Positions 12,306 to 27,270 of a stretch of DNA of 28,183 bases are shown here, piece by piece. A model generated the notes under the pieces. That model was not told the DNA's origin. It made no database searches and worked only from the letters and a program-made list of their open reading frames with translations. The DNA is taken from the NCBI GenBank assembly GCA_044344065.1, contig JBIJDP010000001.1:1-28183 (forward strand), read 5' to 3'. Numbering within the stretch: position 1 is the first letter of the stretch; every line of letters starts with the position of its first letter. This stretch comes from Opitutaceae bacterium (GTDB lineage Bacteria; Verrucomicrobiota; Verrucomicrobiia; Opitutales; Opitutaceae). Made by a program: the position numbers and the translations under genes.

Positions 12306-12356
12306 TCCGCCTCCAGCTATCAACAACATGTGTGTAAACAGCTTGTGGTCCGTAAC

Positions 12357-12392: not shown

Positions 12393-12517
12393 AATGCGTG
12401 CAGCTTGGCTATTCCGCATCTCAAAAAGTTCCGACCTAGTGAAAGCTAGCCGTGTTCAGTCGGACCGTCCTGGCACCAGTTCTGGACTATTCATTTTCAT
12501 TCTCATTGGTGCCGAGT

Positions 12518-12904
12518 TTATCGAACGCTTAATCCGAGTATGTTACTCACGTCCGTCATTAAACCGTAAGCGGTGGTTTCGTTAAGGCCGCCCGCAAGTG
12601 TCGTGGCTTTGCCCCCATGCTCTGCGTCAAGGCGATATGATATCTCCGCCAATTTCTGAATGCGCTTCTTCTCGAGATGCTGTCCAAGAGCGGCGCCGGC
12701 GTTCTGAAGACCGGCAGACACTCCGCCACCATATTGCTGAACGCCGCCGAACACTTCAGTCCCGTCAACATGGTTGCGCAAGATCAGACGATGCAGTTCC
12801 GAAGTCGGGACTGCCTTGCCATTGATGTCGATTGTGGCCGGTGAAACCTTGATCGTGACAGGAGCGCGATACTGATTGGCCTGCTTGCCCTTCCAGATAA
12901 ACAA
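12518..12904 (-). pseudogene. Hypothetical protein, probably an N-terminally truncated or frameshifted remnant
   Basis: 128-aa ORF starting at TTG two codons after an in-frame stop; a hydrophobic stretch (MLYILTVV, ATG 12923) lies just upstream in a shifted frame. Confidence 0.45.
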
Positions 12905-13085
12905 CTGTTAATATATACAGCATTCGTCCGAAAAACTACTGTGTGGCCTTTCGTACCTTTCACTTTTTTGCGGCCTTCGTGGCCGTGCGCCAATCCCATG
13001 GAGGGACGCATCGCTCTTGAACTAACGCCAACACCGACAGGGGCGATCCGGTAAAATCGGTCGACAAGACTCCCAGAGCACTCAC

Positions 13086-13490
13086 ATGAGCGACATCAAA
13101 ACCCACGCGTCAATAACAGCGGAAGCCCTAAGGGAAAGACACCGCTCGGGGCTGGTAACACTCTACTCGCTGCCAGCCACCCAAGAGCGCATCGTCCTCC
13201 GCATTGCCGCACCCAACGGTGGAGAGCCAATCGAGGGGGAGAAATACATCGCCGAGTTCATCAACGCCGATACCGGTTCGGTAATCGAGGTGTTAGAGGA
13301 GGACGAGACTCAGCTGCTCGACATGGACTCAATACGCAACGTCATGGACGATCTTGGGGAGACATATCTTCTGTCGATAGCCGGCGACTGGGAAAACTAT
13401 GTTCAACAAAGCGGCCGTTGCTCTCCCGAAGACGGCGGTCCAAGCGTCTATGAAAGAGCCGACATAGAGCAGCTTGTCATCCGAGGCTGA
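13086..13490 (+). CDS. Acidic hypothetical protein
   Basis: 134-aa ATG ORF with protein-like composition and no competing longer ORF; no family recognised. Confidence 0.6.
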   Translation: MSDIKTHASITAEALRERHRSGLVTLYSLPATQERIVLRIAAPNGGEPIEGEKYIAEFINADTGSVIEVLEEDETQLLDMDSIRNVMDDLGETYLLSIAGDWENYVQQSGRCSPEDGGPSVYERADIEQLVIRG

Positions 13491-13605: not shown

Positions 13606-13705
13606 CACAAAGACGACGGGAACTTCCCGCTCATTCCGGTAGCATCCGAGGGCGCGGCAGACGCCCTTGAGTTTTGGCGCCTGGCAAACAACAAGAAAAG
13701 ACCAC

Positions 13706-15286
13706 ATGGCGACGCCCAAACCGATTCCAGTTATTGACCTTTTCGCAGGCCCGGGAGGCCTTGGCGAGGGCTTCTCCTCGCTCTCGGCGCCGGACGGATC
13801 GCCCCGCTTCAAGCTGCGCGTGTCCATCGAGAAGGATCCGCACGCCCACCGCACCCTTTCCCTGCGCGCCCTCTTCCGACAGTTTCCAAGGGGAAAGGCA
13901 CCGGACTGCTACTATGACCGCATTCGGGGAGACATCTCACAAGAGGCGCTGTTCGCCCACCCGGACGCGCGGGAGGCCGGCGAGGAGGCCCTGAACGAGG
14001 CAAGGCACGCCGAGCTCGGCTCGAAGGCCCATGACGAGATTGACGCCCGGATCGCCGCCGCCCTTGGCGACGAGAGCGACTGGGTCCTGATCGGCGGGCC
14101 GCCTTGCCAAGCCTATTCCCTCGCGGGACGCTCGCGACGTACCAAGGAGGCTCAGGAGACGTTCGAGAGCGACGAAAAGCATTTCCTCTACAAGGAGTAT
14201 CTGCGGATCATTCGCCGGTTCAAGCCCGCCGTCTTCGTCATGGAAAACGTAAAGGGGATGCTCTCGTCCACCCACGGCGGATCGGGAATCTTCGAAAGAA
14301 TCATGGCGGACCTGTCTTCGCCGGGTGAAGACCTGAGCTACGGCATCCGGTCGCTTGTGGTGCCCGGCGAAACAGGGGGACTCAACCCCAAGGATTTCAT
14401 CATCGAGGCCGAGCGTTTCGGTATCCCCCAGTGCCGCCACCGCGTCATCCTGTTCGGCGTGCGCTCGGACGTCGCCGCCCGCACACCGGAGCTTTCCCTC
14501 CACCCGGAACGCTTCACCATCCCCTTCTCTCCAGTGCCCGTCTCGGTGGCAGAGGCCCTTTCCGGCCTTCCGCGGCTTCGAAGCTGCCTGTCGCGCAGAT
14601 CCAAAACAGAGGACTCACACGAGGCTTGGCTCGACATCCTTCGGGGCGCGCCAGCGGCAATGGGGGAGTGGTCCGGGGCGGCAAGCCAAGCCTTCTCGAC
14701 AAATCTGGCAAACGCCATCGCGGCGGCCGGGAGCAGCGTATCGCCCGGCGGCGCCTTCATCGCCCAAGACGCGGCGATGAATGGGCCAGTGGGGCGGCTT
14801 CACGACTGGTTTTTCGACCCGCGGCTGGGCGGCGTCATCCAGCACGACACCCGCAGCCACATGCACTCGGATCTGCACCGCTACCTGTTCGCGTCCTGCT
14901 ACGCGAAAACCTTCGGTGTGTCGCCCAAGGTCACGCAGTTTCCGCGGGGGCTCCTACCCGCCCACGAGAACGCGACCGACGACCACCCGCCCTTCTCGGA
15001 CCGTTTCCGCGTCCAACTGGCGAGCTCCCCATCCTCCACCGTCGTGGCCCACATCGCCAAGGACGGGCACTACTTCATCCATCCCGACCCGTCGCAATGC
15101 CGCAGCCTGACGGTGCGCGAGGCGGCCCGCCTGCAAACCTTCCCCGACAACTATTTCTTCGAGGGCAACCGGACGCAGCAATACACCCAGGTCGGCAACG
15201 CCGTCCCGCCCCTGCTCGCCCGAAAAATCGCCCTTGTGGTACTTGACTTCATGCGACTGTCGAGCCGCCAGACAGCTCCCCGCTGA
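13706..15286 (+). CDS. DNA (cytosine-5) methyltransferase
   Basis: Motifs I DLFAGPGG, IV GGPPCQ, VI ENVKG, VIII QCRHRVIL, IX RSLTVREAARLQTFP and X QVGNAVPP in canonical order, with a long variable region. Confidence 0.95.
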   Translation: MATPKPIPVIDLFAGPGGLGEGFSSLSAPDGSPRFKLRVSIEKDPHAHRTLSLRALFRQFPRGKAPDCYYDRIRGDISQEALFAHPDAREAGEEALNEARHAELGSKAHDEIDARIAAALGDESDWVLIGGPPCQAYSLAGRSRRTKEAQETFESDEKHFLYKEYLRIIRRFKPAVFVMENVKGMLSSTHGGSGIFERIMADLSSPGEDLSYGIRSLVVPGETGGLNPKDFIIEAERFGIPQCRHRVILFGVRSDVAARTPELSLHPERFTIPFSPVPVSVAEALSGLPRLRSCLSRRSKTEDSHEAWLDILRGAPAAMGEWSGAASQAFSTNLANAIAAAGSSVSPGGAFIAQDAAMNGPVGRLHDWFFDPRLGGVIQHDTRSHMHSDLHRYLFASCYAKTFGVSPKVTQFPRGLLPAHENATDDHPPFSDRFRVQLASSPSSTVVAHIAKDGHYFIHPDPSQCRSLTVREAARLQTFPDNYFFEGNRTQQYTQVGNAVPPLLARKIALVVLDFMRLSSRQTAPR

Positions 15287-15710
15287 CGGCCCCTCCGTCG
15301 ATCCATTCGGCGAGCGCCATGGGAAGCGCGGCCAATGTGCCTTTGCCCCTTGTCGCGCACTCCCAGACCACGAGGGCGCGCCACCCGGAGCCCGTCAGGG
15401 ACTCGATGGCCTTTCGGTCCCTCGCGACGTTTCCCTCCAGCTTGGCCTTCCAGAATTCCGGCCGGGTCGCCGGAAGCTTCGCGAAGCGACAGCCCGCGTG
15501 CATGTGCCAGAAGCAGCCGTGGACGAAAACCGCCACGCGCCTCCCCGGGAGGACGATGTCGGGTGCCCCTGGCAAATCCGCCCGGTGAAGCCGGAACCTG
15601 AACCCGGCCGAGAACAGGGCCTTCCTGACCAGCATTTCCGGGCGCGTGTCCTTGCCCCTGATGCCCGACATCATCCGACTGCGCGTCTTCAAGTCGACGA
15701 CGTCGGTCAA
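15249..15710 (-). CDS. vsr: Very short patch repair endonuclease
   Basis: DVVDLKTRSRMMSGIRGKDTRPE, LPGAPDIV, FVHGCFWH and GWRALVVWEC; TTG start overlaps the AIPR stop (TTGA). Confidence 0.95.
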   Translation of the reverse strand: MTDVVDLKTRSRMMSGIRGKDTRPEMLVRKALFSAGFRFRLHRADLPGAPDIVLPGRRVAVFVHGCFWHMHAGCRFAKLPATRPEFWKAKLEGNVARDRKAIESLTGSGWRALVVWECATRGKGTLAALPMALAEWIDGGAVSGELSGGSTVA

Positions 15711-17497
15711 GCGGCGCTCCGGCGGGCCTCCGGAACGTCGAACAGCGGCGCCGAGAACGGCCGGGCGAACATGGCCTCCTTGCACTCGGGGCGCTTCGCC
15801 CATTCGGAAATCATCTTCCCGTTGGAGGTCTGGTGGAGGCGTTCGGCGACCTCACGGGCCCAAACCTCGACCTGCTGGACGAACTGCGGGGAGAGGCCCT
15901 GCCTGCCCCACACGCGTTCCAAATCGAAGGCGCTCCCGTATGTGCGGGAAACCACGGCGACCGTGTAGGCCGCGACGTTGGCGAGAAATGCGGAAACCAG
16001 CGGACGGGCGGTTTTGTGCACGGCCTTGAATATCAACGCCTTGGCGACGAGGTCCTTGAAATAGGCGACGTCGGTGGCGATGGGGCGGCCCTCGGCCTCG
16101 GCGGAGGCCAGCCCCGACATGAACCGGTCGAAGCACTTTTGGGTGCCGAGGCCAACCACGTCGGGCTGGGCGTCCCAGGCCAGGACGTATTTCGCGAGTT
16201 CGGTCTTGGTGATTTTCCGGGCATTGGGGACAGACTCCTTCAAGGCGCGCAACTTGGCGGGCGTCGTGCCCTCGCGGGAGAGAAGCGTGTTGTAGCTGCC
16301 CGCGGCGCGTTCGTAGAACCAGCGGCCGGAGCCGTCAGGGCAATAGACGGAGAGGGACAGGCGCTCGATTTCAACGTGGAAAGGCTTGTTGGCCGAGAGG
16401 TCGGACTGGCGGACCGCGTTCTGGGAGTTCGCGAAGCGCGAGATGTCGGATACCAAGGCCTCCTCCTTGGCGGGGTCCTCCTCCTTCATGACGATGATTT
16501 TGGCCGGGACCCGGACCCTGCTCAGATCGGTCTCGCAGAACTTCTTCTTGGCGAAGAATATCGAGGCGGTGGTCTGCCCGCCGTTCACAATCTGCATGCC
16601 GCGAAGCCAGACTATTCCAGGCGAGCCGTCCGCGGCCCTGTCGAGGCGCATCTCGTCGGCGACGAGGACGATGCCGTTGTTGTAGGCCATGAAACGCTCG
16701 GGGGCGTTCCGAAGGGTGTTCTGGATGCCGGCGTTGACGCCCTTGGCCTTCACGCTCAGGAACGAGCGGACGTTCGCCTCCAGGAGCCTCGGGCCGAACT
16801 TTTCATATACGAAACGGAGGGCCTCGCCGGGGATGGCGGTGAGCGCGTAGTCGTAGTCGCCCGTGTCGCCGGGGACGAAGACGCACGGCAGCGGTGAGCC
16901 GGATACCTCGTTGAAGTCGACGACCAGTTCGTCCCTCGGCTTGCCCTCGGAACGGTGGCGGAACAGCCGCTCGATGTCCATGACCTCGAGCTTGACGCTC
17001 TTTCCGCCGATTTCCCTCGTCTTGAAGCTCTTGGACTTGGCCACCCTGTCGGTGAGGACGAACACCCGGATCTGCTCCAGGTCGTTGTAGATGCTCTGGA
17101 TGTTTAGGGCCAGGAGGTGCGCGTCGTGCGACTGGTCGATTTCCTCGGCCATCTTCCCCGAGGCGCAGAGCGTGAGAAAACGCAGGCACTGCTCCACGGC
17201 GGTCGTCGTCTCCGAGTCGGGAATCGGGACAAGCCCCTCCGCCCCGTCGTAGAGGCTCACGAACAGATCAAGCTGATCCGTCTCCTCCGAGACGGCGTAC
17301 CCGGTAATGCGCAACTTCGCGCGGCCCCGTCCGACCTCCGCCTGGTAGTGGCACACGACGGGGTCGAAGGTCATGCCAACGTCCGCGAGGTGCTGCATGA
17401 CGACCTCGGCGAACACGAGTTCGGCGAAGGGAGAACCGTCGCTCATCTGGGCCCTGACTTCGGTCTGGGTTTCGAGAAGAAAATCCAAAAGGGTCAT
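15707..17497 (-). CDS. mzaE: AIPR family protein (MzaE)
   Basis: LLEANVRSFL, RFMAYNNGIVLVAD, QIVNGGQTTASI and ISRFANSQN; ATG 17497 overlaps the upstream TGA (TGATG). Confidence 0.88.
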   Translation of the reverse strand: MTLLDFLLETQTEVRAQMSDGSPFAELVFAEVVMQHLADVGMTFDPVVCHYQAEVGRGRAKLRITGYAVSEETDQLDLFVSLYDGAEGLVPIPDSETTTAVEQCLRFLTLCASGKMAEEIDQSHDAHLLALNIQSIYNDLEQIRVFVLTDRVAKSKSFKTREIGGKSVKLEVMDIERLFRHRSEGKPRDELVVDFNEVSGSPLPCVFVPGDTGDYDYALTAIPGEALRFVYEKFGPRLLEANVRSFLSVKAKGVNAGIQNTLRNAPERFMAYNNGIVLVADEMRLDRAADGSPGIVWLRGMQIVNGGQTTASIFFAKKKFCETDLSRVRVPAKIIVMKEEDPAKEEALVSDISRFANSQNAVRQSDLSANKPFHVEIERLSLSVYCPDGSGRWFYERAAGSYNTLLSREGTTPAKLRALKESVPNARKITKTELAKYVLAWDAQPDVVGLGTQKCFDRFMSGLASAEAEGRPIATDVAYFKDLVAKALIFKAVHKTARPLVSAFLANVAAYTVAVVSRTYGSAFDLERVWGRQGLSPQFVQQVEVWAREVAERLHQTSNGKMISEWAKRPECKEAMFARPFSAPLFDVPEARRSAA

Positions 17498-18504
17498 CAA
17501 ACAACTCCAAGTTTTTGCAGGGCCGCGTGCAAATCCGTCCGGTGGGCGGCGGCGCGGCCAAGGTCAATCTCATAGAGGGCCTTCGAGACCCCCTCGGGAA
17601 CGTTGCCGCGGACGAGCCTCGGGAACCCGTCCGTCACGGCGTGGACGTGGGACTCCTTGTCGAGGAAGCGGCGCGTGTATTTGTCGGCGTGGGATTCGGC
17701 GTAGCCCGCGGCGAAGGTTCTTTCGCGGAACGCCGAGACCGCCCCGGGGTCCGCCCCGAGCCTTTTCTCGATCTCGGCCACGCGTTCCGGCAGGGTCGTG
17801 CCGGAGTCGACCACCGCAAAGCGAATCCCCGCGAGGAAAAGGGGCGAGAGAAAGGAGTCGTCCAACTGTTCGAGGGAACCGATTTTGGCGGGGAAGCCCG
17901 CCGTGGAGACGGTGGCCTTCACCTCGATGGCCCCGTCGCCCAGCGCGAAGTCCTGAGGGGCGTCGTCCGGCCCCACCCACGATTCGAGGGCGATCTCCGC
18001 GTCGACACCCGCATCGAGGAGCGCCGAAAGGAACGAGATTTCACCGGCGAGCCCCACCTCTGCCTCGGGGCCGAGCGGTCTCGCGCCCTTGCCCATGAAC
18101 GCCTGCCACATGCGGACCCTTCGGAGCATGGCTTTGAGAACCCTCTCCTCCCCCTCGGGAACGGCGGCGTCCATCGCCCCGGCCACGTCGCCGACCATCT
18201 CGGCGAAAAGGTCAGAGCTTCCGGATTCGCGCCGCGACAGGGCGAGCCAGGTCTTTCCGTCGCCGTCCGGGTCGGCCCTCACGATCTCGAAGCCCCTCCC
18301 CTCGGGAAGATGCTCGGAGGGTCCGAGCCGGGCGGACGGGAACCGCGCCAGAAGGGCCTCCTCGTTTCCGGGGAACCGTCTGGCGGCCACCAGCCGGCAG
18401 CTTCCGGCCGGCGTCACGGGAATCCCCCGCCAGCCCCCCTCGCCCGGATCCCTTCCGGACAGCGCGGCCCAAGCGGCCACGAACTCGTCAATCGGCCTTG
18501 CCAT
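17497..18504 (-). CDS. mzaD: DUF4420 PD-(D/E)XK motif protein (MzaD)
   Basis: EVGLAGEISFL, WVGPDDAPQDF...AIEVKAT and IGSLEQLD. Confidence 0.85.
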   Translation of the reverse strand: MARPIDEFVAAWAALSGRDPGEGGWRGIPVTPAGSCRLVAARRFPGNEEALLARFPSARLGPSEHLPEGRGFEIVRADPDGDGKTWLALSRRESGSSDLFAEMVGDVAGAMDAAVPEGEERVLKAMLRRVRMWQAFMGKGARPLGPEAEVGLAGEISFLSALLDAGVDAEIALESWVGPDDAPQDFALGDGAIEVKATVSTAGFPAKIGSLEQLDDSFLSPLFLAGIRFAVVDSGTTLPERVAEIEKRLGADPGAVSAFRERTFAAGYAESHADKYTRRFLDKESHVHAVTDGFPRLVRGNVPEGVSKALYEIDLGRAAAHRTDLHAALQKLGVV

Positions 18505-18561
18505 GCCAACCTCCCAAACGCACTTCGGACGGACCCGCCCAAACCATGCAAACGTCGCCGT

Positions 18562-19614
18562 TCATGAACCTTCCGTCCTTCCCAGACAGCGGGACATCTC
18601 GACGAGGCGAAGCCCGAGCCGTTCAGCCTCCCCGGGGGAAAGCATCATTTCACCATACCCGTGGTTGAAAACGACCTTTCCGTATTTCACCCAAAGAGTG
18701 ACACCGGAAACGGTTTCCTTGTCATCGACGAGATGCAGCAGGCCAAACACGCCGTCCAAGAGCCCGGAGACAAACCCCTCAGACTCCTCTTTGGTCATTT
18801 CCAAGGCCTCAAGAATCCGCGTTTCAGCCCATGCTTCCACAATCCTTCCCGAACCTGCACTGTCGCCCGGCAGGAGCAGGGAGAAGGAGAGTCCAAAACC
18901 GAACCGGCGGTTTCCGCGGCAAACAAGCAGCCACGGTTCCTCATGGTAGAAAAACCATTTGAAGTCATGGTCCCCAAAGCACCCTCGGCGCATCGCTTGG
19001 AAATCAGCCGCCGAATATTCGTTCGGCAACTCGATTCGGACCTGGCCTTCGGAAACGGAAGGCTGAGCCGCCAGTGCCTCGGAAAACGCGGAGGCGGACT
19101 GTTCGTCGGCAAGCACGAAACGGATTTTTTTGAGATTGGAATAGGCCGGGCTCAGGTCCCTGACCGCCTCCATGGCCAAACGGCCGGACAGTTTCGCGGC
19201 GAAGCCTTTGGAACCCGCCGACACGGCGGGAAGGGCGACCGATGCGAATCCGGACTCCTCGGCCAGTTCAAGGACGTTCAAGTAGGTATTCAGCAACCCG
19301 TCGGAAGCGTCCGGATCTCCGTGCCGCGGCCCCCTGCAGTGGATGAGGTTTGGGCTGCAAAGTCCGAGCACGGGAGTCAGGGCCGCCGAACATCTTTCCA
19401 GCGGCGGTAGTTTTCGGCAGGCCTCCGCCAACGCGGCCGCGTCAGCCTTTGCGCGAATCGCGGCTCCCACCTTCCCGTCGAGGGCCATCCGCTCATTCGT
19501 GGGGTGCACGATGGCGTCGAAGCCCTCCTGCCCGGTTATGTCCCCGATGGCCACCTCGACGACGGCGGTTCCGAAACGCCTCGTCGCAACGACCTTTGTC
19601 GCCACGCCGGACAT
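18562..19614 (-). CDS. Macrodomain (ADP-ribose-binding) protein with a C-terminal domain of unknown function
   Basis: VEVAIGDIT...DAIVHPTN, VGAAI, LIHCRGP, Y.N.L..A, SVALPAVSAGSKGF and IRFVL map onto the macro fold; ATG overlaps the Z1 stop (TGATG). Confidence 0.8.
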   Translation of the reverse strand: MSGVATKVVATRRFGTAVVEVAIGDITGQEGFDAIVHPTNERMALDGKVGAAIRAKADAAALAEACRKLPPLERCSAALTPVLGLCSPNLIHCRGPRHGDPDASDGLLNTYLNVLELAEESGFASVALPAVSAGSKGFAAKLSGRLAMEAVRDLSPAYSNLKKIRFVLADEQSASAFSEALAAQPSVSEGQVRIELPNEYSAADFQAMRRGCFGDHDFKWFFYHEEPWLLVCRGNRRFGFGLSFSLLLPGDSAGSGRIVEAWAETRILEALEMTKEESEGFVSGLLDGVFGLLHLVDDKETVSGVTLWVKYGKVVFNHGYGEMMLSPGEAERLGLRLVEMSRCLGRTEGS

Positions 19615-22478
19615 CAGTCCGCCCCTCCGTATTCACGCTCCCAGAGGAGATGGTCGACCTCGTATTTGACTGTCGTGTTCGACCTGCTGCCCGGGAAGCT
19701 GACGCCGAAGGCTGTGACCGGCGGCGAGCCGGCAGGCATCCCGGCAAACGCGGGGTCAAGCGGGTAGATCAGGAGAAGCCCGCGTTCGGGCGTCGCGGGG
19801 ACGCCCTGCGCCCCGAAGCCGCGAACGTTCCGGATGGCCGGGCCGCCCGGGATTTTCGGCGGTTCCGGCTTTTCCGGCTCCGACTGCCTGGCGGGGTCCT
19901 TGGTCCAGGCTGCAAGCGTGACGTCCATGGCCGCGGACCACGCCGCCTCGTCGAGGTCGATTGCCTCGTCACGCGGGGACAGGAGGCGGCCGATGGAATA
20001 ATACCCGCCGCCCTCCTTGGGCTTGCGTCGGATCATCTTTTCGACGAGATGGCGGCCGCAGAACCCGTGCGACTCCCCTTCCCCACCACCCATGAGGACG
20101 ACCGTCCAGGAGGTCAGTTCGCCGTTCGCCGCCATGGCCCTGACGAAGTCGCACAGGAGGGCGCTGTTGACCTTCCTGGCGGCCGGGTGGGTGAGGTAGG
20201 AGGAGAAGAAGTCGGCGATCAGATCGGCCGGCACGCCGTTCCAGAGGAAGCCCTTCCACTCCTGGGTGGAGGTTCCGCGCCTGCGGACGACGGAGCCGTC
20301 CTCCGCGGGAGCCCCCGCCGCGTCGAGCAGCCTCTCAGCCGCGGCCAGGTTTTTGGCGAGAATTTCGGGGTCTCGGTGGAAGGCCACGGTTTCAAGCACG
20401 TCCCCGCTGAACGAGAGTTGCAGGCTCTTCGCCGAGCGCATTTTCAGCGGCGAGGTCACCATGAGGATGGGATGGGACTGGACCTTCATACCGTAGTTTT
20501 CGGGCGTGGCTCCGACGGCGGCCATGGTGTCGAACTCCTGCCGCAACTCCTCGGCGGCGTCGGCGATGTGGCCGAACCACTCGACGAGGTCCCCGCTCGT
20601 GTAGAGCCTGCACAGGTCGATGTATCCCGGACGGTATCCGAACCACCTGCCCATCTGCATCAATGTGTCGTACATCTTCGAGGTGCGGACGAAGTAGCTG
20701 ACACAAAGCCCCTCCAAGGTGAGGCCCCGGGCGAGCTTGTCTCCGCCGATGGCAATCACCTTCAGGCCGGTCCCCTCGTTCTCCGAGTAGTCCAGGGCGT
20801 CCTTCGCGGTCCCGTTGATGGCCCGGACGTCGATGTCCCGGAGCGTCTCCGGCAGGACGGCCACGACGTCGTCCCAGGCCGGCAACGCGCAGTCGGACTC
20901 CGATCCGGGCAGCGCCTTGGCGAGGGTCTCCGAGGTTGGGGCGAAATCGGCCTCCCAGAGGCCGCGCCACTCGTCGAGAAGCTCGTCGCGCTCGAATCCG
21001 CGCTCGACCCTCTGCCTGAACCGCTTGACCAAGTCTTCCACCTGCCGGCGGACGTCCTCCTGGACGGAGTTGTATCGCGTGACGTGGACCAGCATGGAGG
21101 AGTGCTGACGCCCCTGCCCCCTCAGTGTCCTGGCCGCGCAGGCGAGGACGAAGGAGCCGACGGCTTCGCGCAGGGACGGAGGAACCGCGTCGTTCCCCTG
21201 GAACAGGGGGACGTGGTCGGTCTTGTGCTTGGCGGGCATCCAGCCCTCCTTACCGGTGGAGTCGACGTGGTCGTCCACCTCCCTGACCAAGGGCAGCCCG
21301 CCCGAACGCCCGTCCTGGGAGCGCAGGCCGAAGACCCTCGCGGGGCCCACGTAGTTGGACGGGGCGGCCAGGTTGACGATAAAGGATTGCGGGAACAGGT
21401 CGGGCCCCTCCTCGCTCGTCGCCCCGCGCCGGTGGATGAAGATGTTGGCGAAAGGGGTGGCCGTGTATCCGACGTAGGCCTTTTTGGCGAACGCGTGGAG
21501 GATTTTCCGGATGCGGCTGTTGATCGCTTTGGGCTGGTGCTCGTCGTCGGGAGTCCCGTCGGGGTTGAAAAGCTGCTCGCCGGTGTCGACCGAGGCGTGG
21601 TCCGCCTCGTCGTCGATGAGGAGGAGCGGCAGGTTGGTGACCAGCGGGCGGCCGTCGGCGTCCTTGGAGTCCGCGACATGGTTGCGAATCCATTTGAGCA
21701 GGCGCTCGAGGACGGTCTTGTTCTTCTTGACGACGAAGAGCCAGGGCCGCTGCTCCGGGGAGATGGCGTAGTGCTGGGCGACCTTGGTGTTGAAATCCCC
21801 GTTGTTGGAGCGGTTGGTCGCGCAATTGGGCCTGATTTCGGTGTCGCTGTCGAACTCGCCGACCCCGATGACCCTGACGGAGTCGCCCTTGGCGGAGGTC
21901 TCGTATCCGAGGAAGCCCTCTTCGAGCCGAATCTGGGTCTGCGAGCGCAGGTTGTTGTGCAGCCCGGCCAGGACGATGACGATTTTGTAGCCGGCGTCGG
22001 AGGCCTTGCAGACGAGCCCCGTGTAGTTGCCCGTCTTGCCCGACTGGACGTGGCCGACGACGAGACCCCGCCGGTCCCACCTTCCCTCGCGTTTGGGGTC
22101 CTCAAGGAGGCCGAGGATGTGGTTTGTCGACTCGTCGAGCGCGTCGACGGCCTTCACGGACATCTTCGTCTCGAGCATGGACTGGTAGCGCCGCCAATAT
22201 GGCCAGTCCTTCCTGCGGGCGGCGGTGAGCCACGCCTTGTGCCCCTCGTTGTCCGCGAGGGTCGAGTCCTTCCCGATCCAGAGGCTGAACCGCCGGATGA
22301 GTTCCGCGACGGCGGCCTGCTTGTCGATTTCCGCCCCGCGGGCGACGACCATGGCGGCCACCTCGACCTGCTCAAGGATGAGGGCCGGCGTGACCGCGCC
22401 GGTCTCCCGGTCGGCCTGAAGGAGGGTCTGGGCGACGCTTAGGACCCTCTGGAATGTCTTGCCTTCGTCTTCCGTCAC
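19614..22478 (-). CDS. mzaC: Z1 domain-containing SF2-like ATPase/endonuclease (MzaC)
   Basis: GHVQSGKT, IDDEADHAS, GYTATPFANIF and RGLTLEGL...YDTLMQMGRWFGYR; GTG start overlaps the mzaB stop. Confidence 0.9.
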   Translation of the reverse strand: MTEDEGKTFQRVLSVAQTLLQADRETGAVTPALILEQVEVAAMVVARGAEIDKQAAVAELIRRFSLWIGKDSTLADNEGHKAWLTAARRKDWPYWRRYQSMLETKMSVKAVDALDESTNHILGLLEDPKREGRWDRRGLVVGHVQSGKTGNYTGLVCKASDAGYKIVIVLAGLHNNLRSQTQIRLEEGFLGYETSAKGDSVRVIGVGEFDSDTEIRPNCATNRSNNGDFNTKVAQHYAISPEQRPWLFVVKKNKTVLERLLKWIRNHVADSKDADGRPLVTNLPLLLIDDEADHASVDTGEQLFNPDGTPDDEHQPKAINSRIRKILHAFAKKAYVGYTATPFANIFIHRRGATSEEGPDLFPQSFIVNLAAPSNYVGPARVFGLRSQDGRSGGLPLVREVDDHVDSTGKEGWMPAKHKTDHVPLFQGNDAVPPSLREAVGSFVLACAARTLRGQGRQHSSMLVHVTRYNSVQEDVRRQVEDLVKRFRQRVERGFERDELLDEWRGLWEADFAPTSETLAKALPGSESDCALPAWDDVVAVLPETLRDIDVRAINGTAKDALDYSENEGTGLKVIAIGGDKLARGLTLEGLCVSYFVRTSKMYDTLMQMGRWFGYRPGYIDLCRLYTSGDLVEWFGHIADAAEELRQEFDTMAAVGATPENYGMKVQSHPILMVTSPLKMRSAKSLQLSFSGDVLETVAFHRDPEILAKNLAAAERLLDAAGAPAEDGSVVRRRGTSTQEWKGFLWNGVPADLIADFFSSYLTHPAARKVNSALLCDFVRAMAANGELTSWTVVLMGGGEGESHGFCGRHLVEKMIRRKPKEGGGYYSIGRLLSPRDEAIDLDEAAWSAAMDVTLAAWTKDPARQSEPEKPEPPKIPGGPAIRNVRGFGAQGVPATPERGLLLIYPLDPAFAGMPAGSPPVTAFGVSFPGSRSNTTVKYEVDHLLWEREYGGAD

Positions 22479-24001
22479 TTGCTGCTCCCCTCAGTGGCCC
22501 CGTCCGCTCCCGGCAGGGAGGCGACGAGCGCCGGATAGTTTTGGAAAGGGTCCGTCGCCGACAGAGCGCGGACGGCTGCCTCGGGGCTCATGCCCCGCCT
22601 GCCCGTCATGTCGCGGTAGAGCGTGAGCAGCACCCGCTGCACGCCCTCGGGGGCCTCGGGAGGCTCGCCGGTGAACCCGGTCTTCGGCGTGTCCTTGTTC
22701 TCGGCGGTGTCCAGCCAGATTCGCTGGACGGGCACAGTCTCCTCGACGACGCGCAGCATGGCCCTCACCAGATCGGAGCGTAGCCCCGCGGCGTCGATGA
22801 CTGCCGCGACGGCGGGATGCGACTCGTCGATCCTGTAGCGGACCCCGTCCCTCAGGCGCTCGACCCGCCACGCCTGCTCGACGCGCGCTCCGCCGGGACC
22901 CGGGGCGGGCGCCCCGCGGAAGGCGAAAACCCTCCGGGCCCTTTCCCTCGTGTCCTCGGCGAGTTTGGTCAGCCACGCCTTGACGAGCACGGGCGGCCTG
23001 GCGGTTGACTTCTTGACGTCGATTTTCCACTCGGCGTCGGCGGTGTTGGGAATGTCCAGGCGGATGCGGGCGAGGCGGTGCGACTCCTCGCGGTTCCAGG
23101 CCCTGCCCTGGCCCAGGCCGAGCCACCCGCCAGCGAGAAGCAGGCGGCGGTTACGGTAGACGTAGAAGCCCTGCTGCGACGTCCACCCCTCGGGGCCGCC
23201 GGCCCGCTTGAACTCGTCGTCGGAGAGGCGGTCCTTGTGGGGGAGGACGTGACACTGGACCTCGATTGCACCGGACGGGGTGGCCGTCCTGGCGGCGGGC
23301 GAGTGCCAAGGCTTGGCCGGGTGCCCTGTCATGAACGGGTCCCATGGCCTGACCGGCTTTCCGTTCAGGAAAAGCCTGAAGTCCGGAGCGTTACCCTCAA
23401 GGAGGCGGTGGAAGACCATGCCGAGGCGCGCCTCGACGTCGTCGGAGAGATCGCCGAAGTGGCCGACGTCGTAGCCGGGCGTCACGATCCGGTCGAGCCT
23501 CTCCCAAAGCACGAGCGTCCCCGAGCGCAAGAGGGAAAGGGGTTCGAGAAACGCCTCGGAGCCGTCAGCCGGCCCCTCGTGCATGTTCCAGCCGCCGTCG
23601 GACGATGCCAGCATGTCGAGGTCCCAGCGCAGGCATGCGGTCGCCCCGCCTTCGCGCTTTGAGGCCACGGTCAGCCGTCGGCACTGCGAAAAGGAGGCGG
23701 TCTTGAGCCCCATGCCGAAGCGTCCAAGGTCGTCGGCCGCCCTCTCGTCCAGCGGGCTCTTCGCGCCGAGTGTCATCGCGGTTTCGAGTTCGGCGTCGGT
23801 CATCCCCCTTCCGTCGTCCAGAACGGAGATCCTGCTGGCCGTCCCCTCCCAGTCGAACGAGACGCGGACCTCGGACGCTCCTGCGGAGACGCCGTTGTCT
23901 ATCACGTCCGCCAGGGCGGAGGCTGTCGAGTAGCCGAGGCCACGAAGTGCCTCCAACATCGCTCCCGCTCTGGGCGGGGCGTAGCGAGTCTTGCCCGTCA
24001 T
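22475..24001 (-). CDS. mzaB: MORC/MutL-like GHKL ATPase (MzaB)
   Basis: ALADVIDN, DDGRGM, DLGRFGMGLKTASFS, GTLV and IDVKKSTARPP. Confidence 0.9.
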   Translation of the reverse strand: MTGKTRYAPPRAGAMLEALRGLGYSTASALADVIDNGVSAGASEVRVSFDWEGTASRISVLDDGRGMTDAELETAMTLGAKSPLDERAADDLGRFGMGLKTASFSQCRRLTVASKREGGATACLRWDLDMLASSDGGWNMHEGPADGSEAFLEPLSLLRSGTLVLWERLDRIVTPGYDVGHFGDLSDDVEARLGMVFHRLLEGNAPDFRLFLNGKPVRPWDPFMTGHPAKPWHSPAARTATPSGAIEVQCHVLPHKDRLSDDEFKRAGGPEGWTSQQGFYVYRNRRLLLAGGWLGLGQGRAWNREESHRLARIRLDIPNTADAEWKIDVKKSTARPPVLVKAWLTKLAEDTRERARRVFAFRGAPAPGPGGARVEQAWRVERLRDGVRYRIDESHPAVAAVIDAAGLRSDLVRAMLRVVEETVPVQRIWLDTAENKDTPKTGFTGEPPEAPEGVQRVLLTLYRDMTGRRGMSPEAAVRALSATDPFQNYPALVASLPGADGATEGSSK

Positions 24002-24044: not shown

Positions 24045-26366
24045 TCATGCCGCGTCCTCCGTATCGGGTTCGTCCGAGGAGTCGGCAGGCGAGGTCTTCC
24101 CCCACTTCTTTTCGCGCCCCTCGCCCATGTAGACGGCGAGGACGTCCTTGCGGGTCGCGTGGGAGAGCCTGCGCAGGGCCTTGGCCTCGATTTGGCGAAT
24201 CCGCTCCCGAGTCACCTCGAACCGCTGCCCGACCTCCTCCAAGGTCATGGGGTCCTCGTCTCCGAGCCCGAAGCGCAGGGTGACGACCTCCCCCTCACGC
24301 TCCTTCAACTCTCCGACCATCCCAAGAAGCGTCGAGCGCAGAGAAGCCGCCTCGGCATGCAGGTAGGGGTCTTCGGAGGCGGGGCCGGGAAGACCCTCGC
24401 CGAACGGCAGCCCCGTCGCCTCGTCCGGCTCGTCTAGCGAGGAGGCGCCTTCGGAGAGTTCGATAATCCTTCGGGCCTTCCACACGGGAAGCCCCATCCG
24501 TCGCGAGGTTTCCTCGATGGTCTCGGGGCGTCCCGCGCGGGCCTCGAACTCGTCCCGCTCGCGCTCGGTCCGGCGGACGGTCTCGTGCATATGGACCGGA
24601 ATCCGAATGGTCCTCGACTTGTCGGCGATGGCCCTTGAAATCTGCTGGCGAATCCACCATGTGGCGTATGTGGAGAAGCGGAAGCCCTTGCGCCAGTCGT
24701 AGCGCTCGACCGCCTTCATCAAGCCGATGTTCCCCTCTTGGACGAGGTCCTCCAAGGGTTCGCCGGAACGCATGTATTTCTTCGCGAGGGAGAAGGCGAG
24801 CCGGAGGTTGGAAAGGATCATCCTCTCCCGCGCAGCGGCCTGCCGCGTCACGGCTGCGGCGAAGTCGGCACCTGCCCCTTGGCCGCCGGCCGTCTTGGCG
24901 AGCTCGAGAAGGAATCCCCGCGACAGGTTGGCGGCGGCCAGCGCTTGGCGGAGCCGCCCTTTTTTCGCGACGGATGCCTCGACCTCGCCCACGGCCTCAA
25001 CGAACGCCGAGGCGTCCCCGTCGAGTTCGACCGCGTCCTCCTCCGGTTCGCTATCCGGAACCGAGGGTGCGTGGTCGCCGTCGTCAGACGGCTCGGGTCC
25101 CGAGCTGAACGACTCGACGTCCGCCTCGCCGCTGGCCACCTTCCGGCCGGCGTCGATGACGGCGGCTACGCCGGCAGGCCATTCGGCCAGTGCGTCGAGG
25201 GCCTCCTCGCCCGCCTCTTCCATGGCCCTGCCGAGGGAGAGTTCCTCGTCGGCCGTGAGCAGCGCCCCCTTGAACCCGCGAAGATAGAGCCGAAGAGGAT
25301 CGTTTCTGCCGGACGCGAGTTCCTCGGCGTGCTCCATTGCCTCGGAGAGGACGGGCTCCTCCGCGAAGGTTTCGTCAGGCTGGTGAGGCGCGCCGCCGCT
25401 TTCGTCCCGCTCGTCAATCGAGGCGCTGAGGTCGCCCAGCACAAAGGAAAGAAGCCTTTCCGCCTCCGCGTTCCGCGAGCCGTCCGCCTCGCGGCAGACC
25501 TCGACGAGGAGCGATTCCGGCACGGAGCCCTCGCGTAGCGCTCGAAGGAGAAGGCTGCGGACGCCGGGTCCCTCGCCGTCCTCGCGGGCCAAGGGAAGAG
25601 CGCGTTCGGGCAGGAACGCCTCGATGTATCCCCAGTCCTCGTCGGTGTCGACGATCTTGTGCCGGCCTATGGCCTCGTGCACCGCGCGAACCTCGTCTGC
25701 GACGGCGTCGTCGCCTTCCGGAGCGACGCTCTCCGTCTCGGGTTCCCATCCGCCGAAACAATGCCCGTCGTCCGGCTCGTCGAATCCGGGCAACTCCGCC
25801 GCGCCCGTCCGTCCGCACTCCGGAGCGAAGCGCGCCGGCATGAGCGCGGTTTCGGGTCGTTCTTCAATCGTGTCCGCGGGAATGGGCTCAGGCGGGGAAG
25901 AGATTTCACCCGTCCGCAAGCGGAATTCGACACTCTCGCCAGTCGCCTCGGGAACGGGGTCGCCGCTCGTCCCTGTGTCGCCTTGGGAGTCCACGGGGGG
26001 GGCGGGTGAACGGCATTCAGGTTCGGCGGGCACGGTTTCCGGCTCGGCCTGCCGGATGCCTGCGGAAATCGAAGCCAGGGCGGCGCGAATGAGGTCCGAG
26101 CACTCGGCGGAACCAGAACGCTCGGCATGGCCGAGGGCGTCGAGGCCCGAGGGGTCGGTGAGGGAAGGATCGGCACCTGCGGACAGCAGCAGGGCCACGA
26201 CTCCTTTCTTCTTTCGACCTGCGGCGAGCATCAGCGGGGTCGCCCCGCCGCCGTCGCGGGCGTCAAGGTTGTCTCCCCTGCGGATGTGGAGGCGGACGGC
26301 GGTCTCGACCCCGGCGAGGACAGCCATGCGCATGAGGGGGTTCATCGGCTTCACCGGTCTATCCAC
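24045..26366 (-). CDS. mzaA: Ankyrin-repeat + RpoD-like sigma70 fusion (MzaA); true start may be ATG 26345
   Basis: N-terminal ankyrin (DARDGGGATPLMLAA...LLSAGADP); sigma region 1.2 DPLRLYL, region 2 NLRL...DLVQEGNIGLMKAVERYDWRKGFRFSTYATWWIRQ, region 4 TLEEVGQRFEVTRERIRQIEAKAL. Confidence 0.9.
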   Translation of the reverse strand: MDRPVKPMNPLMRMAVLAGVETAVRLHIRRGDNLDARDGGGATPLMLAAGRKKKGVVALLLSAGADPSLTDPSGLDALGHAERSGSAECSDLIRAALASISAGIRQAEPETVPAEPECRSPAPPVDSQGDTGTSGDPVPEATGESVEFRLRTGEISSPPEPIPADTIEERPETALMPARFAPECGRTGAAELPGFDEPDDGHCFGGWEPETESVAPEGDDAVADEVRAVHEAIGRHKIVDTDEDWGYIEAFLPERALPLAREDGEGPGVRSLLLRALREGSVPESLLVEVCREADGSRNAEAERLLSFVLGDLSASIDERDESGGAPHQPDETFAEEPVLSEAMEHAEELASGRNDPLRLYLRGFKGALLTADEELSLGRAMEEAGEEALDALAEWPAGVAAVIDAGRKVASGEADVESFSSGPEPSDDGDHAPSVPDSEPEEDAVELDGDASAFVEAVGEVEASVAKKGRLRQALAAANLSRGFLLELAKTAGGQGAGADFAAAVTRQAAARERMILSNLRLAFSLAKKYMRSGEPLEDLVQEGNIGLMKAVERYDWRKGFRFSTYATWWIRQQISRAIADKSRTIRIPVHMHETVRRTERERDEFEARAGRPETIEETSRRMGLPVWKARRIIELSEGASSLDEPDEATGLPFGEGLPGPASEDPYLHAEAASLRSTLLGMVGELKEREGEVVTLRFGLGDEDPMTLEEVGQRFEVTRERIRQIEAKALRRLSHATRKDVLAVYMGEGREKKWGKTSPADSSDEPDTEDAA

Positions 26367-27270
26367 GTGCGCCGCCTTCCCCTGCGGGAGGAACGTATCC
26401 GGGGGCGATTGCCGCGCTTTCCACGCCGTAGAGCGAAAGCGGGTCCCGAAGCCAGAGGGCGTGTTCCGGACCCCGCAGGCGGTGGTCGGGGGAGCAGTCG
26501 ACGTTCCAGCGCCTCATGACGTAGCCCGCCAAGGCCGCGCGAGCCCGAACCCTGAGAACGCCGTCCGCCATCGGATAGTCGAGTGCAGCCAGTTCCGGTC
26601 GTTCCGAGTCAGGGTGGGCGACCAGTTCGAGGTCCACCACCCGGGTCCACTGGGCGTCGTCTCCTGGGCCCTCGCCTTGGCCCGGTACGTCCCCGGGAAC
26701 GACCTCCGCCGACAGCACCCGCGTGAGGACGAAATCACGGAAGGAGGCGCTTTTCCTGTCGAAGGCCCGGACGTGCCATCGGAGCCCGTTGTCGGCTAGG
26801 GCGAAAGGGACTATTTCTCGCAGCGACTCCCCGCCGGACGCGGAGAAATAGGCGACGCGGAGAACGGCCCCGGACGCGACGGCCCTGGTCACCCGGGCGA
26901 GCGTGTCCGTCGCGGGACGGTTGATGGGCGAGGGAAACTCGCAGGGAACCATGGGCCCCTCCCCGCCGCCGATTCCGTCTCCGAAGCCCAAGGCGAGCGA
27001 CGAGAGGACGCGGTCGATGGGGTGTTCGAACAAGGGAGAGAACGACGCCCCTATCCGATAGGTCTTGGTTCGGCCGTCGAAGGTGATGTTGCCCGGGACC
27101 GCCTCGCGATACAGGGCGAGGTCGCGGGTGGCGCCGGCCGGAGCGACACCGAAACGCGAGCAGATGTCTGCCCTAGAAACCTCGCCGAGGAACCAAAGAC
27201 GAAAGTCTATGTGCGCAAGCCTCTCCCTCTGGGCCTGTCCGAGTTTTGCGGGAAACCCGATTGCCGCCAC
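26359..27270 (-). CDS. WYL-domain transcriptional regulator (BrxR/CapW-like)
   Basis: N-terminal wHTH QRERLAHIDFRLWFLGEVSRADICSRFGVAPAGATRDLALY; WYL region REIVPFALADNGLRWHVRAFDRK...FRDFVLTR; AAGGA RBS before GTG. Confidence 0.9.
   Translation of the reverse strand: MAAIGFPAKLGQAQRERLAHIDFRLWFLGEVSRADICSRFGVAPAGATRDLALYREAVPGNITFDGRTKTYRIGASFSPLFEHPIDRVLSSLALGFGDGIGGGEGPMVPCEFPSPINRPATDTLARVTRAVASGAVLRVAYFSASGGESLREIVPFALADNGLRWHVRAFDRKSASFRDFVLTRVLSAEVVPGDVPGQGEGPGDDAQWTRVVDLELVAHPDSERPELAALDYPMADGVLRVRARAALAGYVMRRWNVDCSPDHRLRGPEHALWLRDPLSLYGVESAAIAPGYVPPAGEGGARG

What the first reader, a model, noticed from the sequence alone, without database searches (positions are those of the whole stretch)
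18562..19614. Mza-type anti-phage operon with an extra, translationally coupled macrodomain gene
The sequence shows the order WYL, ankyrin-sigma70, GHKL ATPase, Z1, MACRO, DUF4420, AIPR, vsr, with stop/start overlaps at most junctions, including TGATG between Z1 and the macro gene. The five-gene Mza system as I know it (ankyrin-sigma, MutL-like, Z1, DUF4420, AIPR) has no macrodomain. This macrodomain is atypical: the usual NAAN...GGGV reads HPTN...DGKV, while GDIT and the GxxGF-like loop are kept. It is fused to a second domain (DFQAMRRGCFGDHDFKWFFYHEEPWLL). Inference: it may be an ADP-ribose sensor or eraser that lets the system detect or undo phage ADP-ribosylation. T4 Alt/ModA modify RNA polymerase, which fits an operon headed by a sigma factor. 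This could be an undescribed Mza subtype.
Basis: partly seen in the sequence, partly recalled or inferred. Interest (0 to 1): 0.82.

Follow-up and report, generated by a model that had tools for sequence, protein, structure and literature searches.

The report
Mza defence operon with ADP-ribose reader
A known five-gene anti-phage system (Mza) carries here an extra, fast-evolving gene whose product joins a probably non-catalytic, histone-macroH2A-like ADP-ribose-binding domain to an undescribed domain that elsewhere rides on ADP-ribose-removing enzymes, which suggests this rare variant uses ADP-ribose marks or metabolites as an infection signal.

Summary
The minus strand carries BrxR/WYL, MzaA-E and Vsr, with a convergent Dcm. 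A 350-aa macro gene (18562-19614) sits between mzaC and mzaD and starts at TGATG.

- The gene is not a one-off. Relatives with 45-91% identity occupy the same junction in at least six other loci. More distant relatives lie after mzaE, upstream of mzaA, or beside a Hhe/PDC-S37-like helicase-nuclease.
- It is rare. None of the 80 nearest reference Mza loci has it.
- The "atypical" HPTN...DGKVG motif is the macroH2A1.1 signature. That domain is the best sequence match (E 1e-25) and fold match (TM 0.88-0.90). MacroH2A1.1 is an ADP-ribose reader, not a hydrolase.
- The MacroD catalytic Asp and His are absent. The Asn is not conserved in the wider family. Twelve of thirteen inferred pocket residues are invariant among close relatives.
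- The first half of the C-terminal region is homologous to an undescribed ~105-aa domain. That domain also occurs on MacroD, PARG, ARH and NADAR proteins.
- The gene is under purifying selection but evolves 3-4 times faster than mzaB-E, and it recombines.
- No ADP-ribosyl "writer" is encoded in the island.

I read it as an accessory ADP-ribose-sensing subunit. It is a new variant of a known system. Ligand, activity and partners are untested.

The parts
26359..27270 (-). BrxR/WYL-family transcriptional regulator, first gene of the operon
   Evidence: Pfam WYL 2.5e-11. PADLOC WYL models hit. The 96-99%-identical locus L004 carries WHD_BrxR+WYL+BrxR_CTD.
24045..26366 (-). MzaA: ankyrin repeats + sigma-70 regions 2 and 4
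   Evidence: Pfam Sigma70_r2 3.7e-23, Sigma70_r4 1.3e-18 and Ank_2. PADLOC MzaA 2.6e-67. Fast-evolving, dN/dS 0.17-0.30.
22475..24001 (-). MzaB: GHKL (MutL/paraMORC-like) ATPase
   Evidence: HATPase_c_3 2e-30. PADLOC MzaB 1.6e-188.
19614..22478 (-). MzaC: Z1-domain helicase-like protein
   Evidence: Z1 4.8e-83. PADLOC MzaC E=0, 1211 bits.
19612..19616 (-). TGATG: the mzaC stop codon shares its A with the macro gene's ATG. A GGAGG lies about 10 nt upstream, inside the mzaC tail.
   Evidence: Read directly from the sequence.
18562..19614 (-). Extra gene: 350-aa macro + C-terminal-domain protein (P0001)
   Evidence: ORF and translation. AF2 model pLDDT 91, pTM 0.87. dN/dS 0.22-0.30. No PADLOC hit.
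19054..19614 (-). Macro domain (residues 1-187), macroH2A1.1-like
   Evidence: Pfam Macro 1.6e-15. PDB profile search best hit macroH2A1.1, E 1.2e-25. Foldseek 1yd9/2fxk/3iid with target TM 0.84-0.90 and 29-30% identity. Twelve of thirteen inferred pocket positions invariant in 17 homologues.
18739..19053 (-). C-terminal region, first subdomain (residues 188-292) with the KWFFYxEEPWL...R motif. It belongs to an undescribed domain that travels with ADP-ribose hydrolases.
   Evidence: hhalign gives 98.8% probability, E 5.4e-17, to the C-terminal domain of the MacroD-type fusions P0070/P0115. That domain matches PARG, ARH, NADAR and Macro proteins and 107-120-aa standalone proteins with TM 0.86-0.95. 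The window model matches the same clusters at TM 0.45-0.55. No Pfam, NCBIfam or PHROG model.
18565..18738 (-). C-terminal region, second subdomain (residues 293-350): four short strands plus a long helix. It is specific to the defence-associated clade and is its most variable part.
   Evidence: AF2 secondary structure. It is absent from P0070/P0115. Only 19% of its positions are invariant, against 38% in the macro domain. No fold match.
18505..18561 (-). 57-nt spacer with GGAGG 6 nt before the mzaD ATG. The mzaD head that follows (MARPIDEF) is a second copy of the segment that overlaps the mzaC tail in macro-less loci.
   Evidence: Sequence. Comparison with L020, L021, L001, L008 and L014.
17497..18504 (-). 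MzaD: DUF4420, predicted PD-(D/E)XK nuclease
   Evidence: DUF4420 1.2e-73. PADLOC MzaD 1.2e-61.
15707..17500 (-). MzaE: AIPR_N + AIPR
   Evidence: AIPR 4.7e-86. PADLOC MzaE 1.2e-213.
15249..15803 (-). Vsr very-short-patch endonuclease, last gene of the operon
   Evidence: Pfam Vsr 5e-30. PADLOC Vsr 5.8e-37.
13667..15286 (+). C5 cytosine DNA methyltransferase (Dcm-type), convergent with vsr
   Evidence: TIGR00675 dcm 3.9e-42. Pfam DNA_methylase 6.3e-45.

Best explanation
The gene encodes an accessory, dispensable subunit of a rare Mza subtype.

Its N-terminal macro domain is of the macroH2A1.1 type. I propose that it binds an ADP-ribose-containing ligand without hydrolysing it. The ligand could be free ADP-ribose or an NAD-derived metabolite, or an ADP-ribosylated protein or nucleic acid. 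The island encodes no ADP-ribosyltransferase, so the ligand must come from elsewhere. Candidate sources are a phage ADP-ribosyltransferase or NAD breakdown during infection.

The C-terminal region is a member of an undescribed ~105-aa domain that accompanies ADP-ribose hydrolases, followed by a clade-specific ~60-aa subdomain.

Shown:
- the Mza identity of the operon;
- the macro fold and its macroH2A-like affinity;
- loss of the MacroD catalytic Asp and His;
- conservation of the inferred pocket;
- homology of the C-terminal domain to the hydrolase-associated domain;
- repeated and positionally varied linkage to Mza and to a Hhe-like system;
- purifying but fast evolution, with recombination;
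- absence of an encoded writer.

Inferred: ADP-ribose binding, lack of catalysis, the nature and source of the ligand, and any contact with Mza proteins.
For: Linkage to defence systems:
- Family members lie between mzaC and mzaD in the window, L001-3, L004-7, L008-10, L014 (45% identity), L105 and L106.
- Others lie after mzaE (L017) or as fragments 3.5 kb downstream of mzaE (L103).
- One lies 1.2 kb upstream of mzaA-mzaB (L016).
- Two lie beside a PDC-S37/Hhe-like helicase-nuclease (L012/13 and L015).
- On the MzaC tree the junction type and the after-mzaE type fall in separate clades. This indicates independent recruitment.

Reader rather than eraser:
- MacroH2A1.1 is the best PDB sequence hit, at E 1e-25 against 1e-16 for YmdB and 2e-14 for Af1521. 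It is also the best fold hit.
- HPTN and LDGKVG align with macroH2A1.1 HPTN and IGGEVG.
- The positions of MacroD Asp and His are Gly50 and Arg54.
- Asn40 becomes S, D or T in P0023-26.
- NCBIfam hydrolase equivalogs score far below their cut-offs, 82.7 against 200.
- L012/13 carry a separate ARH hydrolase next to the macro gene.

Pocket kept: D25, N40, D46, G47, G50, I53, S132, G134, K136, G137, F138 and F166 are invariant in 17 homologues. Across the whole macro domain only 38% of positions are invariant. G47 aligns with macroH2A1.1 G224, whose G224E mutant is binding-deficient (PMC12343833).

Sensor-like evolution:
- dN/dS is 0.22-0.30, against 0.04-0.15 for mzaB-E.
- In L004 the flanking genes are 96-99% identical to the window but the macro gene is 76% identical. 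Its dS is 0.51 against 0.08-0.18 for the flanks.
- Per-domain identities are mosaic, and the C-terminal region is the most variable part.

No writer: no ART, TIR or SIR2 gene in the island or in the related loci.
Against: - No binding or activity data exist. Some macrodomains that lack the MacroD Asp and His, such as viral Mac1, are still hydrolases (my own knowledge), and Asn40 is kept in the window's clade.
- The C-terminal domain's relatives ride on hydrolases (MacroD, PARG, ARH, NADAR). This could equally mean that the window protein is, or recently was, an eraser.
- Loop residues D46, K48 and K136 differ from macroH2A1.1 and could change or abolish ADP-ribose binding.
- Macro-less sister loci (L020, L021) are intact. 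The gene is therefore not needed for a functional-looking Mza operon, and its effect on defence could be nil.
- The mapping of pocket residues rests on alignment and recalled numbering, not on a docked model.
Confidence: 0.45

Rival explanations
1. Eraser (counter-counter-defence). The macro domain is an active ADP-ribosyl hydrolase. It strips ADP-ribose that phage transferases place on Mza proteins, host RNA polymerase or DNA, and so keeps the system working. The C-terminal domain targets the enzyme to its substrate.
For: The C-terminal first subdomain is homologous to a domain fused to four unrelated ADP-ribose hydrolase families, including canonical MacroD with NAAN...GGGVD. Asn40, both phosphate loops and the GDIT Asp are conserved in the window clade. 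The family grades from canonical MacroD-like motifs to the window's motifs. An ARH neighbour in L012/13 shows that hydrolysis of ADP-ribose is relevant in at least one related locus.
Against: The nearest relatives by sequence and fold are the non-catalytic macroH2A macro domains. MacroD Asp and His are replaced by Gly50 and Arg54. The Asn is not conserved in P0023-26. All NCBIfam hydrolase equivalogs score far below their cut-offs. A separate ARH next to a homologue suggests that the two proteins divide the work.
Confidence: 0.3
2. Degenerate macro scaffold. The domain no longer binds ADP-ribose. It binds a different nucleotide-like ligand, or nothing, and the protein acts purely as a structural or specificity adaptor, for example by recognising a phage protein through the variable C-terminal region.
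For: There are unusual charged substitutions in both phosphate loops (D46, K48, K136). The C-terminal region is the fastest-evolving and recombining part. MacroH2A1.2 and macroH2A2 show that this class easily loses ADP-ribose binding (my own knowledge).
Against: Twelve of thirteen inferred pocket positions are invariant, against a 38% background. This includes the Gly that aligns with G224 and the adenine-contacting Asp. Such conservation is hard to explain without a ligand.
Confidence: 0.15
3. Passenger. The gene is a hitch-hiking or independent function, such as a housekeeping YmdB-like protein or a stand-alone defence or antitoxin gene, that merely landed in the operon and has no functional tie to Mza.
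For: The gene is absent from 80/80 reference Mza loci and from macro-less sisters inside its own clade. Some homologues sit outside Mza.
Against: The gene is co-oriented and start/stop-coupled to mzaC. It has been kept under purifying selection while the locus moved between different flanks. At least three positional arrangements with Mza exist in separate MzaC clades. The non-Mza homologues sit by another defence nuclease. No partner toxin or ART gene is present. It is the only macro gene in the genome, and it is not found in 12 same-genus genomes.
Confidence: 0.1

Closest known systems
Mza (mzaABCDE) anti-phage system (Gao et al. 2020, cited in PMC9523054 and PMC13223576; PADLOC models PDLC02203-02207). 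It belongs to the paraMORC/SFII-helicase/Dcm/Vsr restriction-like systems of Iyer, Abhiman and Aravind 2008 (PMC2292703).
   Same: All five core genes are present in canonical order with very strong model hits. The Dcm and Vsr partners and the BrxR/WYL regulator occur as in many reference loci.
   Different: A sixth gene (macro + C-terminal domain) lies between mzaC and mzaD. In 80/80 reference loci mzaD starts immediately after or inside the end of mzaC; the two loci read directly (L020, L021) show a 14-nt overlap. No PADLOC model covers the sixth gene.
MacroH2A1.1 macro domain (PDB 1yd9, 2fxk, 3iid; Capsaspora 7ny6/7ny7)
   Same: It is the best sequence and fold match: E 1e-25, target TM 0.84-0.90, rmsd about 2 A and 29-30% identity. 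The HPTN motif, the G-x-V-G loop and the G-x-x-G-F loop are shared. The MacroD catalytic Asp and His are absent in both.
   Different: The window protein is bacterial, not fused to a histone, and carries a different C-terminal region. Loop residues are D46, K48 and K136 instead of G, E and N. ADP-ribose binding is untested.
Macro-domain ThsA effectors of Thoeris (PMC11204291)
   Same: In both, a macro domain inside an anti-phage system acts as a ligand sensor rather than a hydrolase. This is a functional analogy.
   Different: There is no TIR (ThsB) signal generator and no effector domain on the same chain. No sequence kinship beyond the macro superfamily was seen.
DarG antitoxin of DarTG, and YmdB/MacroD-type hydrolases
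   Same: All have the macro fold. DarG is defence-associated. Distant family members (P0070, P0115) have canonical MacroD motifs.
   Different: There is no DarT or other ART partner. MacroD Asp and His are lacking. NCBIfam hydrolase equivalogs score well below their cut-offs.
Hhe / PDC-S37 helicase-nuclease single-gene defence candidates (PADLOC)
   Same: Two homologues of the macro protein (44% and 40% identity) lie next to such a gene.
   Different: This is not the window's system. It shows only that the macro protein family is a module shared between defence systems.

Membership tests
Mza defence system | MzaA (ankyrin-sigma), MzaB (GHKL), MzaC (Z1), MzaD (DUF4420) and MzaE (AIPR) are co-directional and adjacent | tested here: met
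   PADLOC HMMs hit all five (E 2.6e-67 down to 0) in order on the minus strand.
Mza defence system | Protects against phage | not testable with these tools
I could not read the original test in Gao 2020 because the paper is not held.
Macro domain superfamily (PF01661) | Sequence match above the Pfam gathering score, and a macro fold | tested here: met
   57.6 bits against a cut-off of 22. AF2 pLDDT 91. Foldseek target TM 0.80-0.90 to more than 40 macro structures.
MacroH2A-like class of macro domains | Closest kinship to macroH2A macro domains; HPTN and G-x-V-G loop 1; G-x-x-G-F loop 2 | tested here: met
   The top PDB hits by profile (E 1e-25 to 1e-17) and by Foldseek are all macroH2A1.1, 1.2 or 2. 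The motifs align.
MacroH2A-like class of macro domains | Binds ADP-ribose or poly(ADP-ribose) ends without hydrolysing them | not testable with these tools
   Only inferred, from conserved pocket residues and the missing catalytic residues.
MacroD-type ADP-ribosyl hydrolases (YmdB, MacroD1/2, Af1521) | N-x(9)-D-x(3)-H catalytic set within NAAN...GGGVD..H | tested here: not met
   Asn40 is present, but the Asp position is Gly50 and the His position is Arg54. NCBIfam equivalogs score 35-83 bits against cut-offs of 200-315.
DarTG toxin-antitoxin | An adjacent DarT (DUF4433) ADP-ribosyltransferase toxin | tested here: not met
   No ART-type domain in any island ORF or in the related loci.
Thoeris with macro ThsA | A TIR-domain ThsB partner, and an effector domain on the macro protein | tested here: not met
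   No TIR gene. The C-terminal region has no transmembrane or known effector domain.
Undescribed ADP-ribose-hydrolase-associated domain (the C-terminal first subdomain) | A ~105-aa domain with the K-W-F...E-P-W-L...R motif, found fused to Macro, PARG, ARH or NADAR or standing alone | tested here: met
   hhalign 98.8%, E 5.4e-17, to P0070/P0115. Those match the fused domains with TM 0.86-0.95. The window model matches the same clusters at TM 0.45-0.55. K219, W220, W228, R233 and G211 are invariant across the family.

The most novel reading that the evidence does not exclude
A restriction-like, Dcm-linked Mza system has acquired a dedicated reader of ADP-ribosylation. Marks or metabolites produced by phage ADP-ribosyltransferases, or by NAD-cleaving immunity, then become the trigger or specificity input for a nuclease/ATPase machine.
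Probability: 0.25. Interest if true: 0.8.

Novelty: new variant of a known kind. Interest (0 to 1): 0.6.

Why it matters
To my knowledge, how Mza senses infection and what it does are unknown. I found no mechanistic paper in the held library.

This natural variant carries a ligand-binding module with a predictable pocket. It therefore offers a direct experimental handle: point mutants, ligand screens, and phages with and without ADP-ribosyltransferases. It would also add a case of immunity that reads an ADP-ribose signal which the system does not itself write.

Separately, the C-terminal first subdomain points to an unannotated domain shared by four structurally unrelated ADP-ribose hydrolase families in bacteria and phages. 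That is of interest to the ADP-ribosylation field whatever Mza turns out to do.

Tried and rejected
Searches for the C-terminal region that found nothing:
- Pfam, NCBIfam, PHROGs and PADLOC gave no hit.
- Foldseek against PDB and BFVD gave nothing below E 0.03.
- VIA-align over 48,161 chains gave Z of 5 or less, with TBP-like, START-like and KA1-like hits that are within noise.
- The ESM feature search with the window segment gave no usable hit.
- The word-index searches with the C-terminal region or its profile reached only the same family, plus two stand-alone fragments.
- A viral-contig scan with the profile found no relative.
- tblastn found nothing in phages, and only ordinary macro proteins in plasmids.
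- 400 sampled genomes of the phylum held no C-terminal-domain homologue.

Readings rejected:
- DarTG-like and Thoeris-like readings, because no ART or TIR gene is present.
- The 'single-locus curiosity' reading, because of the related loci.

Literature:
- One search was swamped by journal DOIs containing 'mzac'.
- The Gao 2020 paper is not held.
- The NAR 2026 domain-centric screen mentions neither Mza nor macro.

Not done:
- No docking or complex prediction was possible with the tools.
Full report
**1. Observation**

The minus strand of the window carries a tight operon:
- WYL/BrxR, 27270-26359
- MzaA, 26366-24045
- MzaB, 24001-22475
- MzaC, 22478-19614
- a macro-domain gene, 19614-18562
- MzaD, 18504-17497
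- MzaE, 17500-15707
- Vsr, 15803-15249

A C5 cytosine methyltransferase lies convergent at 13667-15286. PADLOC's MzaA-E models all hit, with E from 2.6e-67 down to 0. The macro protein hits nothing in that library.

The mzaC stop and the macro ATG share one base (TGATG, 19616-19612), and a GGAGG lies about 10 nt upstream. A 57-nt spacer with its own GGAGG precedes mzaD.

**2. The macro domain**

Pfam Macro scores 57.6 bits against a cut-off of 22. An AlphaFold2 model built on a 23-sequence alignment is confident, with pLDDT 91 and pTM 0.87.

MacroH2A macro domains come first in both searches. The profile search of PDB sequences gives E 1.2e-25 for macroH2A1.1, against 1e-16 for YmdB and 2e-14 for Af1521. 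Foldseek gives target TM 0.84-0.90, rmsd about 2 A and 29-30% identity.

In the HMM alignment:
- HPTN aligns with macroH2A1.1 HPTN.
- LDGKVG aligns with IGGEVG.
- SAGSKGF aligns with GSGRNGF.

The 'atypical' motif is therefore the signature of the macroH2A-like class, which reads ADP-ribose but does not hydrolyse it (established knowledge of that class).

By my numbering, which is an inference from the alignment, G47 corresponds to G224. The G224E mutant is the standard binding-deficient form of macroH2A1.1 (PMC12343833). D25 corresponds to the adenine-contacting Asp, and G134 and F166 to G314 and F348.

The positions of the MacroD catalytic Asp and His are Gly50 and Arg54. All NCBIfam hydrolase equivalogs fall far below their cut-offs. 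In the wider family the Asn of HPTN becomes S, D or T. Twelve of thirteen inferred pocket positions are invariant in 17 homologues of 62-91% identity. The background over the macro domain is 38% invariant positions.

**3. The C-terminal region**

Residues 188-350 have no Pfam, NCBIfam, PHROG or PADLOC match. No convincing PDB or BFVD fold match was found. Modelled alone, the region is confident at pLDDT 90.5. It has two parts.

First subdomain (about residues 188-292):
- It carries the invariant G211, K219, W220, W228 and R233.
- It is homologous (hhalign 98.8%, E 5.4e-17) to the C-terminal domain of two 293-aa proteins, P0070 and P0115. Their N-terminal halves are canonical MacroD domains with NAAN...GGGVDGAIH.
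- In the ESM Atlas, that domain of P0070 superposes with TM 0.86-0.95 on domains of proteins that carry PARG_cat_microb (phage), ADP_ribosyl_GH, NADAR or Macro. It also superposes on 107-120-aa stand-alone proteins.
- The window's own model finds the same clusters at TM 0.45-0.55, and an AFDB cluster of 397 aa at E 2.4e-3.

This is therefore an undescribed domain that recurs on four structurally unrelated ADP-ribose-hydrolase families.

Second subdomain (residues 293-350): it is restricted to the defence-associated clade and is the most variable part.

**4. Recurrence and rarity**

The word-index search found 21 clusters of 62% identity or more. The exhaustive search added more distant two-domain relatives of 34-45% identity. 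Their genomic contexts are:

| Context | Loci |
|---|---|
| Between mzaC and mzaD | L001-3, L004-7, L008-10, L014 (45% identity), L106, and a decayed copy L105 |
| After mzaE | L017 |
| Fragments downstream of mzaE and dcm | L103 |
| 1.2 kb upstream of mzaA-mzaB | L016 |
| Beside a PDC-S37/Hhe-like helicase-nuclease | L012/13 (with an ARH gene directly upstream) and L015 (the nuclease ends in a GreA/B C-terminal domain) |

Against this, none of the 80 nearest Mza loci in species-representative genomes (MzaC 51-78% identical) has a macro or C-terminal-domain ORF within 8 kb. This held by tblastn and by HMM. The gene was not found in 12 same-genus genomes. The C-terminal domain was not found in 400 sampled genomes of the phylum.

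**5. History**

On an MzaC tree, the five junction-type loci fall in one 7-row clade with SH-aLRT 100. That clade also holds two macro-less loci, L020 (Pseudomonas flexibilis) and L021 (Sedimentibacter). The after-mzaE loci sit in a separate clade.

At the junction, macro-less loci have the mzaD ATG inside the mzaC tail, a 14-nt overlap. Macro-bearing loci differ in three ways:
- They keep the mzaC tail.
- They start the macro ORF at or inside that tail. P0017 and P0011 still use the old mzaD ATG, which gives the N-termini MAQPI and MAQPT.
- They carry a second copy of the mzaD head (MARPIDEF) after the insert.

The overlap segment is thus duplicated on both sides of the insert. This explains the inherited translational coupling. 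It also offers a route to precise loss.

**6. Selection**

Against L001, L004 and L008 the macro gene has dN/dS 0.22-0.30. It is therefore a constrained coding gene. The values are 0.04-0.15 for mzaB-E and 0.17-0.30 for mzaA.

In L004 the flanking genes are 96-99% identical to the window, but the macro gene is 76% identical. Its dS is 0.51 against 0.08-0.18 for the flanks. Per-domain identities are mosaic between alleles. Both results point to recombinational exchange of the gene or of its domains. This behaviour is typical of components that face the phage.

**7. Mechanism**

No ART, TIR or SIR2 'writer' is encoded in the island or in the related loci. The ligand must therefore be made elsewhere.

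My best reading, at confidence 0.45, is an accessory ADP-ribose reader that feeds an infection-linked ADP-ribose signal into Mza. The C-terminal region would act as the targeting or docking part.

The main rival, at 0.3, is an active eraser that undoes phage ADP-ribosylation. The hydrolase company kept by the C-terminal domain and the retained Asn40 keep this open. A ligand-less scaffold (0.15) and a mere passenger (0.1) are less likely, because of the conserved pocket and the repeated, positionally varied linkage.

The sigma domain of MzaA is common to all Mza systems and is not specific to this variant.

**8. Comparison and novelty**

The Mza core is known. It is attributed to Gao 2020 in PMC9523054 and PMC13223576, and the Dcm/Vsr-linked paraMORC systems were described in PMC2292703, which does not mention macro domains. 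Macro-domain sensors exist in Thoeris (PMC11204291). I found no paper or PADLOC model that places a macro gene in Mza.

I class this as a new variant of a known kind. A by-product is a probably new domain family associated with ADP-ribose hydrolases.

**Limits**

- All functional statements are inferences from sequence, predicted structure and gene context.
- Most related loci are metagenomic contigs.
- The ESM Atlas matches are between predicted models.
- The host taxon was not determined.

Noticed in passing
window 18505-18561 and 19612-19640; L020:10840-10870; L021:8275-8300; L008:8030-8060: Insertion scar. In macro-less Mza loci the mzaD start codon lies inside the mzaC tail, a 14-nt overlap. 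In macro-bearing loci that segment is present twice: once as the mzaC tail and once as the relocated mzaD head (MARPIDEF). Some macro alleles (P0017, P0011) still start at the old mzaD ATG.
   Followed up: yes
L015:3-776: The PDC-S37/Hhe-like nuclease next to a 40%-identical macro homologue ends in a GreA/GreB C-terminal domain (E 8e-7). This is a second RNA-polymerase-binding type of module beside this protein family, in addition to the sigma-70 regions of MzaA.
   Followed up: partly
L012:8818-9717 and L013:5081-6040: An ARH-type ADP-ribosylglycohydrolase gene lies directly upstream of the 44%-identical macro homologue, in a locus with a 1486-aa SF1 helicase-DUF559/MTES_1575 protein.
   Followed up: partly
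L105:7000-12000: A copy of the macro-bearing Mza locus on a 293-kb contig has Z1, macro and DUF4420 split into fragments. This is either a decaying locus or the result of assembly frameshifts.
   Followed up: no
window 24045-26366: MzaA evolves as fast as the macro gene (dN/dS 0.17-0.30; 69-71% identity where MzaB-E are 87-94%). MzaA and the macro protein are therefore the two candidate phage-facing parts of the operon.
   Followed up: partly
window 10237-11148, 11398-13490, 27663-28181: The operon lies in an island between queF (QueF_N/QueF) and a mutS 5' end (MutS_I from 27663). The island's left part holds an HTH_17 ORF and four small ORFs without family matches. The macro gene was not found in 12 same-genus genomes, which fits horizontal acquisition.
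   Followed up: partly
window 15249-15803 / 15707-17500 / 13667-15286: The longest Vsr ORF overlaps the mzaE 3' end by 97 nt, and the Vsr domain begins only at residue 33, so the true start may be further downstream. The dcm and vsr 3' ends overlap convergently by 38 nt.
   Followed up: no
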